NCBI GenBank assembly: GCA_000165345.1
Contig: CM000436.1
Location: forward strand, 736,001-800,000
Length of the DNA stretch: 64,000 bases
Direction: 5' to 3'
Shown here piece by piece: positions 12,602 to 14,332 of the stretch (positions within the stretch are counted from its first letter, which is position 1; the number at the start of each line of letters is the position of its first letter). A model generated the notes under the pieces. It did not search any database. It was given only the letters and a program-made list of their open reading frames with translations, and was not told the DNA's origin. The position numbers were made by a program, and so were the translations under genes.

Positions 12602-14332
12602 TTAATTTCTTCTTTCATAATATCTAAAATTTCCGTTATGGTCACTTCGGTCAGAATTATAATTATTAATGTATCTCTGATTTGAATTGTAGTTTTGAAG
12701 GTTATTTGCACTATTCCCCGGGTTTTGATTATAACTATAATTGTTAGAATATAAATAATTTTGGCTTGGGTATAATGGAAAATTGTAGCCATTCGAAATA
12801 GCATTATAATTGTAGTGCCCACCTTGAGAATTGTATGTTTCATAATAGCGATTGTTTTGAGAATTCCTGTTCTGAATCGAGTATTGGGCTGGGTGATTAG
12901 CGTATCTAGGATAATCTAGAAAATTTACTGTTTGAGTATTATGATGATTATAATTTATTAAATTAAAATTTGTGTTTACTGTAGTTGTAGAAGTAATCGT
13001 TCTTGAGATCGTATTACTAGATAAATTCGTGTCTGAATTCATAGTTCCAAAATAATTTAAGTAATTTTTGGGGAAAGCAACAGCAATAGCAGTAGTAGTA
13101 GTAGTAGTAGTAGTAGTAGTAGTAGTAGTAGTAGTAGTAGTAGTTGTTGTTGTTGTCATAGTAGTAGTAGTAGTAGTTGTTGTCATAGTAGTAGTAGTAG
13201 TAGTAGTAGTAGTAGTAGTAGTAGTAGCAGTAGTAGTAGTAGTAAACATATTTTGTTCATGTTGAGAATTTACAATGGAATTATCTCTTTTTATATTTGA
13301 ATTACTTACTTTATTTTTGTTATCTCTAATTTTTCTTGGTGGGTTGAGGCTAGCTTCATATGAATAAATAGTATCTAATGAAGAATCATTTTTTTTGGAA
13401 TTACAATCACCTTTATCAAAATCACAATTTTCATTATTACAATCTTCATCACAATACCCATCACCTACCCAAGAATTTAAGCAAAATTTATAGATTAAAG
13501 GCTGATTATTATAGTCAACTTTTGAAACTGAACAAACGTTTGTACAGTCTCCTCCGTCATAGTTGCAGTCTTTATTGTTACAACTATTATCGCATATTCC
13601 ATTCCCTATCATCCATGTTCTGCAGTTTCCTGAACAAGTTTTACAGTCACCTTTATCATAGAAACACTCTATAGTATCACAATTTGGGTCACATTGACCA
13701 TCTCCAAGCCACATGTTAATACAACGAGAATTACATCTATGTAAACAGTCACCTTTATCCATATTACATTCGATATTATTACATTCTATATCACAAACGT
13801 TATTTCCAAGCAGTTCTTTATTACAATTGCATTTAGAGTAGTCAAATTCAAGATTGGTTATGTTCGGCCATTTCTTTTCAAAATTTAATATTATTTCTTT
13901 ATTTAAATCAAAGTTATTTCCTTTACAATCACCGTTATCCCAATTGCACTTTGAATTAAAGCAATCAATGTCGCACTGTCCATCCCCAAGCCAAGTAGGA
14001 CGGCATTCAGGCGCACACCACCCAACGCAATCACCTCCGTCATTTCCACAATCATCAGAGAAACACTCTTTATCACACCAACCATCACCTATCCAAGACT
14101 CTTCGCAACTCAAGGCACAATTTGGAAATTTCTGCCTCAATTTATCAAGCACGATACTACTCCTGCTATTAAGCATTTGATTGTTCGACTTGGTTGGAAC
14201 AACGTTGATCAGATTATTTCTTACAGGAATAACATTGAGTTTTTTATCGATATAAAGGTCACCGGACTCCACAGAGACCACGAGCCCTACAATAACTATT
14301 AAGTAAAATATTAGCATTAAAACCTCCCTCAT
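12602..14332 (-). CDS. Secreted glycoprotein with a signal peptide, six tandem Notch/LIN-12 (LNR) repeats, a poly-Thr mucin-like tract and a Tyr/Asn/Gln-rich C-terminal low-complexity tail.
   Basis: The start is a true ATG (RC of cat at 14330-14332). The N-terminus MREVLMLIFYLIVIVGLVVSVESG is hydrophobic. Six repeats fit the LNR consensus C..C...W.GDG.CD..C....C..DGGDC, for example CEESWIGDGWCDKECFSDDCGNDGGDC and CLNSWVGDGYCDEDCNNENCDFDKGDC, at nt about 13405-14125. A run of more than 50 Thr lies at nt about 13087-13252. Confidence 0.8.
   Translation of the reverse strand: MREVLMLIFYLIVIVGLVVSVESGDLYIDKKLNVIPVRNNLINVVPTKSNNQMLNSRSSIVLDKLRQKFPNCALSCEESWIGDGWCDKECFSDDCGNDGGDCVGWCAPECRPTWLGDGQCDIDCFNSKCNWDNGDCKGNNFDLNKEIILNFEKKWPNITNLEFDYSKCNCNKELLGNNVCDIECNNIECNMDKGDCLHRCNSRCINMWLGDGQCDPNCDTIECFYDKGDCKTCSGNCRTWMIGNGICDNSCNNKDCNYDGGDCTNVCSVSKVDYNNQPLIYKFCLNSWVGDGYCDEDCNNENCDFDKGDCNSKKNDSSLDTIYSYEASLNPPRKIRDNKNKVSNSNIKRDNSIVNSQHEQNMFTTTTTATTTTTTTTTTTTTMTTTTTTTTMTTTTTTTTTTTTTTTTTTTTTTAIAVAFPKNYLNYFGTMNSDTNLSSNTISRTITSTTTVNTNFNLINYNHHNTQTVNFLDYPRYANHPAQYSIQNRNSQNNRYYETYNSQGGHYNYNAISNGYNFPLYPSQNYLYSNNYSYNQNPGNSANNLQNYNSNQRYINNYNSDRSDHNGNFRYYERRN
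13082..13245. repeat. Trinucleotide microsatellite: (AGT)n on the + strand, equal to (ACT)n Thr codons on the - strand. It is interrupted by short (TGT)n blocks and two CAT (Met) codons, and encodes the poly-Thr tract of the LNR-mucin.
   Basis: The near-perfect agtagtagt... run is read directly across 13091-13244, with blocks gttgttgttgtt and cat. The Thr tract uses almost only one codon, which suggests replication-slippage expansion. Confidence 0.95.

What the first reader, a model, noticed from the sequence alone, without database searches (positions are those of the whole stretch)
12602..14332. Animal-like Notch/LNR repeat array fused to a poly-Thr mucin in a secreted protein of an apicomplexan-like genome
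Six tandem, nearly canonical LIN-12/Notch repeats are read directly: CxxxWxGDGxCDxxCxxxxCxxDGGDC. They are followed by a tract of more than 50 Thr that is probably O-glycosylated, and a Tyr/Asn-rich tail, all behind a signal peptide. LNR modules are otherwise characteristic of metazoan Notch/PAPP-A and a few Stealth proteins. In a protist, such a surface or secreted adhesin-like architecture is a candidate host-interaction factor. The Cys spacing looks intact in all six repeats, so they are probably folded, Ca-binding LNRs.
Basis: partly seen in the sequence, partly recalled or inferred. Interest (0 to 1): 0.7.

Follow-up and report, generated by a model that had tools for sequence, protein, structure and literature searches.

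The report
Cryptosporidium female-stage secreted LNR glycoprotein (cgd8_2800)
This is the already-annotated Cryptosporidium parvum gene cgd8_2800, a secreted protein with six genuine Notch-type (LNR) calcium-binding modules and a threonine-rich mucin tail; published data show it is switched on in female gametes with the oocyst-building genes, so it is more likely a transmission-stage protein than a host-cell adhesin.

Summary
Window 12602-14332 (-) is one 576-aa ORF with an N-terminal signal-type segment, six LNR modules, a Thr tract and an Asn/Tyr-rich tail. Pfam PF00066 scores 125 bits against a cut-off of 21, in six stretches, and there are 36 Cys (6x6). The Thr tract has 48 Thr in 52 residues, not more than 50. 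There is no TM or GPI signal.

[quoted passage not shown] Published qPCR primers map exactly inside it.

- The six-LNR core is an old apicomplexan family found in Cryptosporidium, Toxoplasma, Neospora, Besnoitia, Eimeria, Cyclospora and gregarines.
- LNR arrays also occur in diatoms, green algae, amoebozoans and a chromerid, so they are not "animal-like".
- The mucin and Asn/Tyr tail is a recent, lineage-specific appendage encoded by an (ACT)n microsatellite.

Published transcriptomes show about 52-fold induction in sorted female gametes, alongside oocyst wall proteins. The Toxoplasma protein of the same name is oocyst-specific by proteomics.

Best reading: a Ca-stabilised, O-glycosylated secreted protein of the macrogamont/oocyst programme. 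Already known as a feature. Its function is untested.

The parts
12602..14332 (-). Complete CDS of cgd8_2800 (576 aa plus stop), single exon
   Evidence: ORF list. Published cgd8_2800 qPCR primers map at 13551-13572(-) and 13451-13472(+) with 0 mismatches. The adjacent gene is UK-UPRT, published as cgd8_2810.
14264..14332 (-). Signal peptide, aa 1-23 (MREVLMLIFYLIVIVGLVVSVES|GD). The cleavage site is inferred.
   Evidence: Only strongly hydrophobic 19-mer in the protein (KD 2.77). Orthologues of C. felis, C. ryanae, C. xiaoi, Toxoplasma and Neospora also start with a hydrophobic segment. SignalP was not available.
14120..14263 (-). Pre-LNR region, aa 24-71, with a conserved D-x-L-R-x-x-[FY]-P motif just before LNR1
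   Evidence: D63, R66 and P70 are invariant or nearly invariant in the 12-sequence alignment.
14027..14119 (-). LNR1, aa 72-102
   Evidence: Cys columns invariant except in P0051, which lost C2 and C4 together.
13925..14017 (-). LNR2, aa 106-136
   Evidence: All six Cys present in 34/34 orthologues.
13832..13924 (-). 31-residue linker between LNR2 and LNR3, aa 137-167. Predicted helix, variable in length between lineages.
   Evidence: In the AF2 model, helix 82-95 of the 261-aa construct and a low-pLDDT stretch at 98-102.
13745..13831 (-). LNR3, aa 168-196 (short C1-C2 spacing, no Trp)
   Evidence: Aligns to Notch1 LNR-A in the PDB search.
13643..13735 (-). LNR4, aa 200-230
13544..13636 (-). 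LNR5, aa 233-263 (best-scoring Pfam stretch, 231-263)
13403..13534 (-). LNR6, aa 267-310, with a conserved 16-aa insert (VDYxxQPxIYxFC) between C1 and C2
   Evidence: C1 and C5 are both present in 16 orthologues, both absent in 18, and never present singly.
13244..13402 (-). Asn/Ser/Lys-rich spacer, aa 311-363, poorly conserved
13088..13243 (-). Poly-Thr mucin-like tract, aa 364-415 (48 Thr), encoded mainly by an (ACT)n microsatellite
   Evidence: 42 of 48 Thr codons are ACT. The tract is much shorter or absent in other Cryptosporidium species and absent in coccidia and gregarines.
12605..13087 (-). Asn/Tyr-rich low-complexity tail, aa 416-576
   Evidence: 24% Asn and 14% Tyr. Similar composition only in C. 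canis and C. felis.
14333..14586 (-). 254-bp intergenic region between the stop of cgd8_2810 and the start of cgd8_2800. It must hold the female-stage promoter (inferred).
   Evidence: Coordinates. Stage-specific expression. No motif analysis was done.

Best explanation
The ORF is Cryptosporidium parvum gene cgd8_2800. It encodes a soluble protein that enters the secretory pathway through an N-terminal signal peptide. Its conserved working part is a block of six LNR modules arranged 2 + 4 with a helical linker. Each module is a small knot held by three disulfides (C1-C5, C2-C4, C3-C6) and probably one Ca2+ ion bound by four conserved Asp/Asn.

The gene is transcribed mainly in female gametes (macrogamonts), rises further in in-vivo females (per the paper, fertilization and meiosis were seen only in vivo), and is co-expressed with the oocyst wall proteins. 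I therefore infer that it is secretory cargo of the female/zygote stage. It would be delivered to the forming oocyst (wall, or the matrix between wall and sporozoites) and act there as a Ca2+-stabilised protein-binding module.

In the C. parvum lineage it has additionally acquired a poly-Thr stalk, probably O-GalNAc glycosylated, and an Asn/Tyr-rich tail through microsatellite expansion.

Shown: gene identity, domain content, conservation, and stage-specific transcription in C. parvum. By shared product name only: oocyst-specific protein detection in Toxoplasma. Inferred: Ca2+ binding, glycosylation, the destination in the oocyst, and the binding role.
For: Identity:
- The neighbour is an exact C. 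parvum UK-UPRT, published as cgd8_2810.
- Published cgd8_2800 primers map exactly inside the ORF.

Domains:
- PF00066 x6 at 125 bits.
- The PDB sequence search hits only Notch NRR, GNPTAB and PAPP-A LNRs, apart from one non-significant Mucin-2 line (E=0.88).
- AF2 model of aa 60-320 has pLDDT 82.9.
- Foldseek matches with E<=0.001 are all Notch NRR, followed by weaker PAPP-A matches. The single module 1pb5 superposes at 1.7 A over 31 residues, although that row itself has E=1.6.

Disulfide pattern:
- 34 of 36 Cys columns are invariant or nearly so in 34 orthologues.
- LNR6 C1 and C5 are lost or kept only together (16 both, 18 neither, 0 single).
- One protein lost C2 and C4 of LNR1 together.

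Ca site: D/N at C3-3, C3+1, C6-4 and C6-1 is near-invariant in all six repeats, apart from Thr at C3+1 of LNR3 in 9 of 34 orthologues.

Soluble: one hydrophobic segment only.

Stage:
- Tandel 2019 log2 CPM is 3.24 in asexual parasites, 8.93 in females in vitro and 10.12 in females in vivo. LogFC female vs asexual is 5.70.
- The gene is listed in a top-500 sheet with COWP1/3/4/6/7/8, CCp1, CCp2, amine oxidase and subtilases.
- It is in the sheet 'SporoVSinvivo-Female'.
- It is paired with E. tenella gene ETH_00031640 in the supplementary file on conservation of female/gametocyte-expressed genes (sheet header not read).
- Mauzy 2012 qPCR is at the floor from 2-36 h and rises 10-100x at 48-72 h, when cultures sexualise.

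Toxoplasma: the 'notch (DSL) domain-containing protein' TGME49_085690 was found by MS in oocysts and is absent from a 5325-protein tachyzoite proteome. Its mRNA is 121x, 15x and 21x higher in day 0, 4 and 10 oocysts than in tachyzoites. It is also in an oocyst-gene list.

Phyletic pattern: all named orthologues come from oocyst-forming lineages.
Against: - No localisation data for the protein were found. The hyperLOPIT paper was not available.
- The gene ID was not found in the supplementary tables of an oocyst proteomics study, although the ID format there is unknown.
- A 2025 secretome study detected the protein in medium at 3/6 h after adding sporozoites and grouped its transcript with microneme/rhoptry-like genes peaking at 12 hpi.
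- The link between P0007 and TGME49_085690 rests on the shared product name, not on sequence.
- Absence from Plasmodium and piroplasms is only 'not seen' in a search that demonstrably misses known members.
- Ca2+ binding and O-glycosylation are inferred from sequence only.
Confidence: 0.62

Rival explanations
1. Zoite adhesin or invasion factor. The protein is stored in micronemes or another apical organelle of sporozoites and merozoites, is discharged on host contact, and its LNR block or mucin stalk binds host epithelium or mucus.
For: It has a signal peptide and a mucin-like tract like gp900 and gp40/15. It was detected by MS in culture medium at 3/6 hpi, and its RNA rises from 3 to 12 hpi alongside TRAP-C1, GP900 and TSP11. 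The Toxoplasma protein of that name keeps 15-21x elevated mRNA in sporulated oocysts, which contain sporozoites.
Against: Sorted 24-h asexual parasites express about 9 CPM against about 490-1100 CPM in females. The gene is in the female-only sheet of the sporozoite comparison. The Toxoplasma protein of that name is absent from a very deep tachyzoite proteome. The secretome inoculum was an unfiltered 5000 g pellet of excysted oocysts, and its 'secreted' list is full of cytosolic proteins such as glycolytic enzymes, proteasome subunits and histone H2B. Carry-over of oocyst material would therefore explain the detection. The mucin/tail part is not conserved even within the genus. The protein has no TM domain or cytoplasmic tail to couple to the glideosome.
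Confidence: 0.2
2. Regulator of extracellular proteolysis or cross-linking during oocyst wall assembly. By analogy with Notch, where LNRs clamp and hide a protease site, and PAPP-A, where LNRs set substrate choice, the six-LNR block would bind a wall precursor or a female-stage subtilase or aspartic protease and control when it is processed, in a Ca2+-dependent way.
For: The closest structural and sequence relatives are exactly these regulatory LNRs. The gene is co-expressed with secreted subtilases, aspartic peptidases and amine oxidase in females (text). The strict conservation of the whole six-module arrangement, including the linker position and the LNR6 insert, suggests a specific partner rather than a generic spacer.
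Against: This is purely analogical. There is no HD-like domain or protease domain in the protein, and no partner is known. It is a special case of the main explanation rather than an alternative to its stage assignment.
Confidence: 0.1
3. Mis-called or non-functional ORF: a low-complexity, microsatellite-bearing reading frame that is not a real protein.
For: About 46% of the product (aa 311-576) is low-complexity. The exact product is not in the 15-billion-protein collection.
Against: Orthologues are colinear from gregarines to coccidia with 34 of 36 Cys columns conserved. Transcription is abundant and regulated. The protein has been detected by MS.
Confidence: 0.01

Closest known systems
Toxoplasma gondii 'notch (DSL) domain-containing protein' (P0007; TGME49_085690 by name), with its Neospora, Besnoitia, Eimeria, Cyclospora and gregarine counterparts
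   Same: The same six-LNR core in the same order, the same 2+4 arrangement with a linker, and the same LNR6 insert. Pairwise identity to the named coccidian and Gregarina orthologues is 43-51% across the full core. All have a signal peptide and no TM domain. Expression is oocyst or sexual-stage biased.
   Different: Coccidian proteins have a long Ser/Ala/Pro-rich N-terminal extension and a short charged C-terminus. They have no poly-Thr or Asn/Tyr tail, and they have lost the C1-C5 disulfide of LNR6.
LNR modules of the metazoan Notch negative regulatory region (e.g. PDB 3ETO, 1PB5)
   Same: Pfam family, Cys spacing C3-3-C4-4-C5-6-C6, conserved Asp/Asn positions and predicted module fold.
   Different: There are six modules rather than three. 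There is no heterodimerisation domain, EGF repeats, TM segment or intracellular domain, so it is not a Notch receptor, despite the automatic name 'notch receptor protein' given to the C. ryanae orthologue. C2-C3 spacing is 9 rather than 8.
LNR modules of PAPP-A/PAPP-A2 and of GlcNAc-1-phosphotransferase (GNPTAB, Stealth family)
   Same: Sequence-level LNR matches (7s05_B E=4.8e-9; PAPP-A E=2e-5). These are LNRs used as protein-recognition modules outside Notch signalling.
   Different: Those LNRs are accessory parts of large enzymes. Here the LNR block is the only recognisable domain.
Cryptosporidium mucin-like glycoproteins (gp900/cgd7_4020, gp40/15, Muc family)
   Same: Signal peptide plus long Thr runs that are O-GalNAc modified in those proteins (my background knowledge; abstracts).
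   Different: gp900 is a micronemal type I membrane protein of zoites. cgd8_2800 is soluble, female-stage biased, and its Thr tract is a recent add-on to an old LNR protein.
Other C. parvum LNR-containing extracellular proteins: cgd5_3420 (TSP1/LNR, 'TRAP-C2') and cgd6_670 (clostripain-like + notch + EGF)
   Same: They show that LNR modules in Cryptosporidium surface or secreted proteins are long catalogued. cgd5_3420 is also in the female top-500 list.
   Different: These are large multidomain membrane proteins with a single LNR or a few among other domains. They are not LNR-only proteins.

Membership tests
LNR / Notch domain (Pfam PF00066) | Profile HMM score above the curated gathering threshold | tested here: met
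   125.2 bits against 21.2, E=1.3e-36, six stretches.
LNR / Notch domain (Pfam PF00066) | Six Cys per module with the characteristic spacing | tested here: met
   All six repeats have C3-x3-C4-x4-C5-x6-C6, as in human Notch1 LNR-A/B/C. C1-C2 is variable (1, 3 or 16), as it is in Notch.
LNR / Notch domain (Pfam PF00066) | Disulfide connectivity C1-C5, C2-C4, C3-C6 (the connectivity is from my knowledge of the Notch1 LNR-A structure) | tested here: met
   Indirect evidence, by natural covariation. LNR6 C1 and C5 are both present in 16 and both absent in 18 of 34 orthologues, never one alone. P0051 lost C2 and C4 of LNR1 together. C3-C6 never varies, so it is untested.
LNR / Notch domain (Pfam PF00066) | Conserved Asp/Asn cluster that coordinates one Ca2+ per module | tested here: inconclusive
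   D/N at C3-3, C3+1, C6-4 and C6-1 is near-invariant in all six repeats across 34 orthologues, apart from Thr at C3+1 of LNR3 in 9 of 34. Metal binding itself cannot be tested with these tools.
LNR / Notch domain (Pfam PF00066) | LNR fold | tested here: met
   AF2 pLDDT 82.9. Foldseek matches with E<=0.001 are all Notch NRR, followed by weaker PAPP-A. 1pb5 superposes at 1.7 A over 31 residues and a PAPP-A LNR at 1.1 A over 27, both rows with E>1. The multi-module superposition is poor (rmsd about 11 A), so the inter-module arrangement differs or is uncertain.
Notch receptor | EGF repeats, an NRR with an HD domain, a TM segment, and an RAM/ankyrin intracellular domain | tested here: not met
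   Pfam finds only PF00066. There is no second hydrophobic segment.
Mucin-type O-glycoprotein | Dense Ser/Thr tract carrying O-GalNAc | not testable with these tools
   The tract is present (48 of 52 residues are Thr). Glycosylation needs glycoproteomics or lectin blots.
Cryptosporidium oocyst wall protein (COWP) family | COWP-type Cys-rich repeats | tested here: not met
   No family other than PF00066 at E<=1. The link to COWPs is co-expression only.
Apicomplexan micronemal adhesins (TRAP/MIC type) | Adhesive domains (TSP1, vWA, Apple/PAN, EGF) plus a TM segment and a short cytoplasmic tail; expression in zoites | tested here: not met
   None of those domains and no TM segment. Expression is low in sorted asexual stages.

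The most novel reading that the evidence does not exclude
The six-LNR protein is a conserved, functionally important component of oocyst construction in all oocyst-forming Apicomplexa (Cryptosporidium, gregarines, coccidia) and was lost in blood parasites. It would act as a Ca2+-dependent clamp or adaptor that times the processing or assembly of wall precursors released from the female gamete. That would be the first defined non-metazoan role for an LNR array, and a transmission-blocking target.
Probability: 0.15. Interest if true: 0.55.

Novelty: already known. Interest (0 to 1): 0.27.

Why it matters
As a sequence feature it is not new. The gene has carried an LNR label in the public C. parvum annotation for years, and LNR-containing extracellular proteins of Cryptosporidium are catalogued.

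The value here is a correction of the functional guess. Evidence scattered across supplementary tables (female gametes in C. parvum, a paired gene in the female/gametocyte conservation file for E. tenella, oocyst proteome in T. gondii), together with the phyletic pattern, points to the sexual/oocyst stage, which is the stage that transmits disease. I found no study in the held library that had tagged or deleted the gene.

A conserved, secreted, female-stage protein with a well-folded Cys-knot core is a reasonable candidate for studies of oocyst biogenesis. The (ACT)n tract may also be a useful length-polymorphic marker.

Tried and rejected
- Exact-sequence look-up of the product returned nothing. 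No C. parvum or C. hominis cluster appeared in either homology search. even omitted proteins that were in the query alignment (P0002, P0007, P0008, P0010). I therefore treat 'no Plasmodium or piroplasm hit' as weak evidence only.
- Papers I wanted but that are not held: Templeton et al. 2004 (PMC515313), the paper I recall as Chatterjee et al. 2010 on mucin tethers (PMC2805294, an identifier from memory that may be wrong), and Guerin et al. 2023 hyperLOPIT (no PMC id).
- Supplement searches for cgd8_2800 were negative in PMC13241007 and PMC12548878. No supplements are held for PMC12604037 or PMC9713705.
- The 'notch' hits in Eimeria papers referred to host Notch signalling or KEGG terms, not to the parasite gene. 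Walker 2015 does not mention ETH_00031640 in its main text.
- The chromerid genome paper has no LNR entry in its main text.
- Searches for TGME49_285690 and ETH_00031640 found nothing beyond Possenti 2013.
- A dityrosine cross-linking role for the Tyr-rich tail (as in Eimeria GAM56/82) was considered and set aside. The tail is not conserved beyond C. parvum, C. canis and C. felis, and from my background knowledge Cryptosporidium oocyst walls are not known for dityrosine autofluorescence.
- The automatic names 'notch receptor protein' and 'mucin-like protein' given to orthologues were rejected as functional descriptions.
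Full report
**1. What is in the sequence**

Window 12602-14332 on the minus strand is a single uninterrupted ORF of 576 codons plus a stop. In-frame stops lie just upstream of the first Met.

Scanning the product against Pfam gives one family only: PF00066 (LNR/Notch domain), E=1.3e-36, 125.2 bits against a gathering score of 21.2, in six separate stretches. A sequence search of all PDB chains returns Notch1/2/3 negative-regulatory-region chains, GlcNAc-1-phosphotransferase and PAPP-A/PAPP-A2, all matched through their LNR modules, plus one non-significant Mucin-2 line at E=0.88.

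The protein has 36 Cys, six in each of six repeats at aa 72-102, 106-136, 168-196, 200-230, 233-263 and 267-310. The spacing C3-x3-C4-x4-C5-x6-C6 is identical in all six repeats and identical to human Notch1 LNR-A, -B and -C.

- LNR3 has one residue between C1 and C2 and no Trp.
- LNR6 has a 16-residue insert between C1 and C2.

The modules are arranged 2 + 4. Linkers within each group are two or three residues, and a 31-residue linker separates LNR2 from LNR3.

After a 53-residue Asn/Ser-rich spacer comes a 52-residue tract with 48 Thr, 2 Ala and 2 Met. This is slightly less than the 'more than 50 Thr' reported. A 161-residue tail follows with 24% Asn and 14% Tyr.

42 of the 48 Thr codons are ACT, so the tract is an (ACT)n microsatellite.

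The only strongly hydrophobic segment is aa 4-22, followed by V-E-S|G-D, which fits a cleavable signal peptide. Nothing resembles a TM helix or a GPI signal.

**2. Whose gene it is**

The next ORF (14587-15960, minus) is identical over its full length to C. parvum uridine kinase-uracil phosphoribosyltransferase. That gene is published as cgd8_2810.

The supplement of Mauzy et al. 2012 gives qPCR primers for cgd8_2800. Both map with no mismatch inside the ORF, at 13551-13572(-) and 13451-13472(+), and nowhere else in the window.

So the ORF is cgd8_2800.

**3. Are the LNRs likely to be folded?**

An AlphaFold2 model of aa 60-320, built with 15 homologues, has a mean pLDDT of 82.9. Only the middle of the long linker and the C-terminal end are uncertain.

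Foldseek against the PDB gives 12 matches at E<=0.001, all Notch NRR, followed by weaker PAPP-A matches. Single modules superpose well: 1pb5 at 1.7 A over 31 residues and a PAPP-A LNR at 1.1 A over 27, although those two rows have E>1. Multi-module superpositions are poor, so the relative arrangement differs from Notch or is not well predicted.

I aligned 34 orthologues. In that alignment, 34 of the 36 Cys columns are invariant or nearly so. The two exceptions form a natural experiment:
- C1 and C5 of LNR6 are both present in 16 sequences (Cryptosporidium and gregarine-type) and both absent in 18 (coccidian-type). Neither is ever present alone.
- In one further protein (P0051), C2 and C4 of LNR1 are lost together.

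Both paired losses are what the canonical LNR connectivity predicts (C1-C5, C2-C4, C3-C6; the connectivity is from my knowledge of the Notch1 LNR structure).

The four Asp/Asn positions C3-3, C3+1, C6-4 and C6-1 are near-invariant in all six repeats, apart from Thr at C3+1 of LNR3 in 9 of 34 orthologues. This is consistent with one Ca2+ site per module. Binding itself is not testable here.

**4. Relatives and what is conserved**

Homology searches recover clear full-core relatives in:
- C. canis, C. felis, C. ryanae and C. xiaoi (72-84% identity over the core).
- Toxoplasma, Neospora, Besnoitia, several Eimeria species and Cyclospora.
- Gregarina, Selenidium and a Gregarina sp. (43-51% identity over the core for the coccidia and Gregarina niphandrodes in the pairwise figures). 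Blabericola gave only a partial match (45% of the query).

Weaker multi-LNR proteins carrying PF00066 occur in Vitrella, diatoms, Tetraselmis, Pelomyxa, Acytostelium and a deltaproteobacterial MAG. The module is therefore not 'animal-like', and the protein is not Cryptosporidium-specific.

The alignment shows that only the signal peptide, a short motif before LNR1 and the six-LNR block are conserved. Downstream of LNR6 nothing aligns outside the genus:
- The longest Thr run is 22 here, 7 in C. canis, 10 in C. felis, and 0-3 in the other orthologues.
- Tyr is 0% in the C-terminal regions of the coccidian orthologues in that alignment.

The 'fusion to a mucin' is thus a young, lineage-specific expansion on an old LNR protein.

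No Plasmodium or piroplasm protein was named among the hits. However, the search tool demonstrably missed known members, so this is weak evidence of absence.

**5. When and where it is made**

Mauzy et al. 2012 (four replicates) measured cgd8_2800 near the detection floor at 2-36 h (about 1e-9 to 5e-8). It rose to 1.7e-7 to 2.1e-6 at 48 h and 1.6e-7 to 5.5e-7 at 72 h. Tandel et al. 2019 report that HCT-8 cultures sexualise after 36 h and are more than 80% gamonts and gametes by 72 h.

In the RNA-seq of sorted parasites from Tandel et al. 2019, cgd8_2800 shows these mean log2 CPM values:

| Sample | Mean log2 CPM |
|---|---|
| Asexual stages, in vitro | 3.24 |
| Females from culture | 8.93 |
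| Females from mice | 10.12 |

LogFC female vs asexual is 5.70 (about 52-fold).

Further points from the same supplements:
- The gene sits in a top-500 list with COWP1, 3, 4, 6, 7 and 8, CpCCp1, CpCCP2, amine oxidase, secreted subtilases and aspartic peptidase, and DMC1/HORMA.
- It is in the sheet 'SporoVSinvivo-Female'. I read this as the female-only part of a comparison with sporozoite-enriched genes.
- It is paired with E. tenella gene ETH_00031640 in the supplementary file on conservation of female/gametocyte-expressed genes, in a row without a P. berghei partner. I did not read the header of that sheet.

In Toxoplasma, the 'notch (DSL) domain-containing protein' TGME49_085690 is one of 154 proteins found by MS in oocysts but absent from a 5325-protein tachyzoite proteome. 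Its mRNA is 121-, 15- and 21-fold higher in day 0, 4 and 10 oocysts than in tachyzoites. That is the same profile as the CCp/LCCL and scavenger-receptor proteins in that table. It also appears in an independent list of oocyst-stage transcripts. The equation with my hit P0007 rests on the identical product name.

**6. The conflicting report**

A 2025 secretome study lists cgd8_2800 among 70 'potential microneme and rhoptry proteins'. The protein was found in medium 3/6 h after adding sporozoites, and its RNA rose from 3 to 12 hpi.

Two features weaken that assignment. The inoculum was a 5000 g pellet of a 3-h excystation mix without removal of shells or residual material. The same list also contains glycolytic enzymes, proteasome subunits and a histone.

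I take this as good evidence that the protein exists in oocyst-derived material. I take it as poor evidence for a micronemal origin. Only early time points were sampled.

**7. Best explanation and rivals**

Most likely (about 0.6): cgd8_2800 is a soluble, secreted, disulfide- and Ca2+-stabilised LNR protein of the female-gamete/zygote programme. It would be delivered to the forming oocyst and act as a protein-binding module. In the C. parvum lineage it carries an O-glycosylated Thr stalk.
- Shown: identity, domains, conservation and stage-specific transcription in C. parvum.
- By shared product name only: oocyst-specific protein detection in Toxoplasma.
- Inferred: destination, binding role, Ca2+ binding and glycosylation.

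Rival 2 (about 0.1, a refinement of the main reading): an LNR clamp that regulates proteolytic processing of wall precursors, by analogy with Notch and PAPP-A.

A spurious ORF is excluded.

**8. Comparison with known families, and novelty**

The protein is a bona fide member of the LNR domain family. It is not a Notch receptor, not a COWP and not a TRAP/MIC-type adhesin (see the membership table).

As a feature it is already known and annotated. What seems not to have been done, as far as the held literature shows, is any localisation or genetic test. The synthesis above gives a concrete and testable stage assignment.

Interest is low to moderate. A specialist would not be surprised by the domain content, but might find the conserved female/oocyst association useful.

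Noticed in passing
window 13088-13243 (-): The poly-Thr tract is an (ACT)n microsatellite: 42 ACT, 6 ACA, 2 GCT and 2 ATG codons. The exact 576-aa product is not in the 15-billion-protein collection, although the neighbouring gene's product is. This may reflect length polymorphism between isolates, which would make it a possible typing marker. On the opposite strand the tract creates a meaningless poly-Val ORF (13068-13265 +).
   Followed up: partly
window 40-12444 (+): A 4134-aa ORF fills the first 12.4 kb and converges on cgd8_2800 with only 157 bp between the two stop codons. [quoted passage not shown] Its start may lie beyond the window's edge.
   Followed up: no
window 14587-15960 (-): UK-UPRT fusion gene (cgd8_2810), an exact match to the C. 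parvum protein. Only 254 bp separate its stop from the start codon of cgd8_2800, so a female-stage promoter must fit in that space. An ATGCAT-containing element lies near its distal end, but no motif analysis was done.
   Followed up: no
orthologue alignment; LNR6 = window 13403-13534: There are natural paired Cys losses. Coccidian-type orthologues lack both C1 and C5 of LNR6, and P0051 lacks both C2 and C4 of LNR1. Gregarine-type orthologues instead carry an extra Cys inside LNR6 (C-D-C-x-C) and another one shortly after LNR6, possibly a seventh disulfide.
   Followed up: partly
literature (versus 39, 50, 55): The 2025 C. parvum secretome list of 'potential microneme and rhoptry proteins' includes cgd8_2800 and other genes that the Tandel 2019 data place in female or in-vivo-female sets, alongside many cytosolic housekeeping proteins. 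Carry-over from excysted oocysts is a likely confounder for that list.
   Followed up: partly
C. parvum genome, outside this window: Two other C. parvum proteins are annotated with LNR modules: cgd5_3420 (TSP1/LNR, TRAP-C2) and cgd6_670 (clostripain-like + notch + 2 EGF, predicted oocyst wall). cgd5_3420 is also in the same female top-500 sheet, and cgd6_670 appears a few rows after cgd8_2800 in the same part of the female/gametocyte conservation file. LNR modules may therefore be a recurring element of the sexual/oocyst-stage secretome.
   Followed up: no
homology search tool behaviour: The profile search did not return several proteins whose own sequences were in the query alignment (P0002, P0007, P0008, P0010). 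Neither search returned any C. parvum or C. hominis entry. Negative results from this index should not be read as absence.
   Followed up: no
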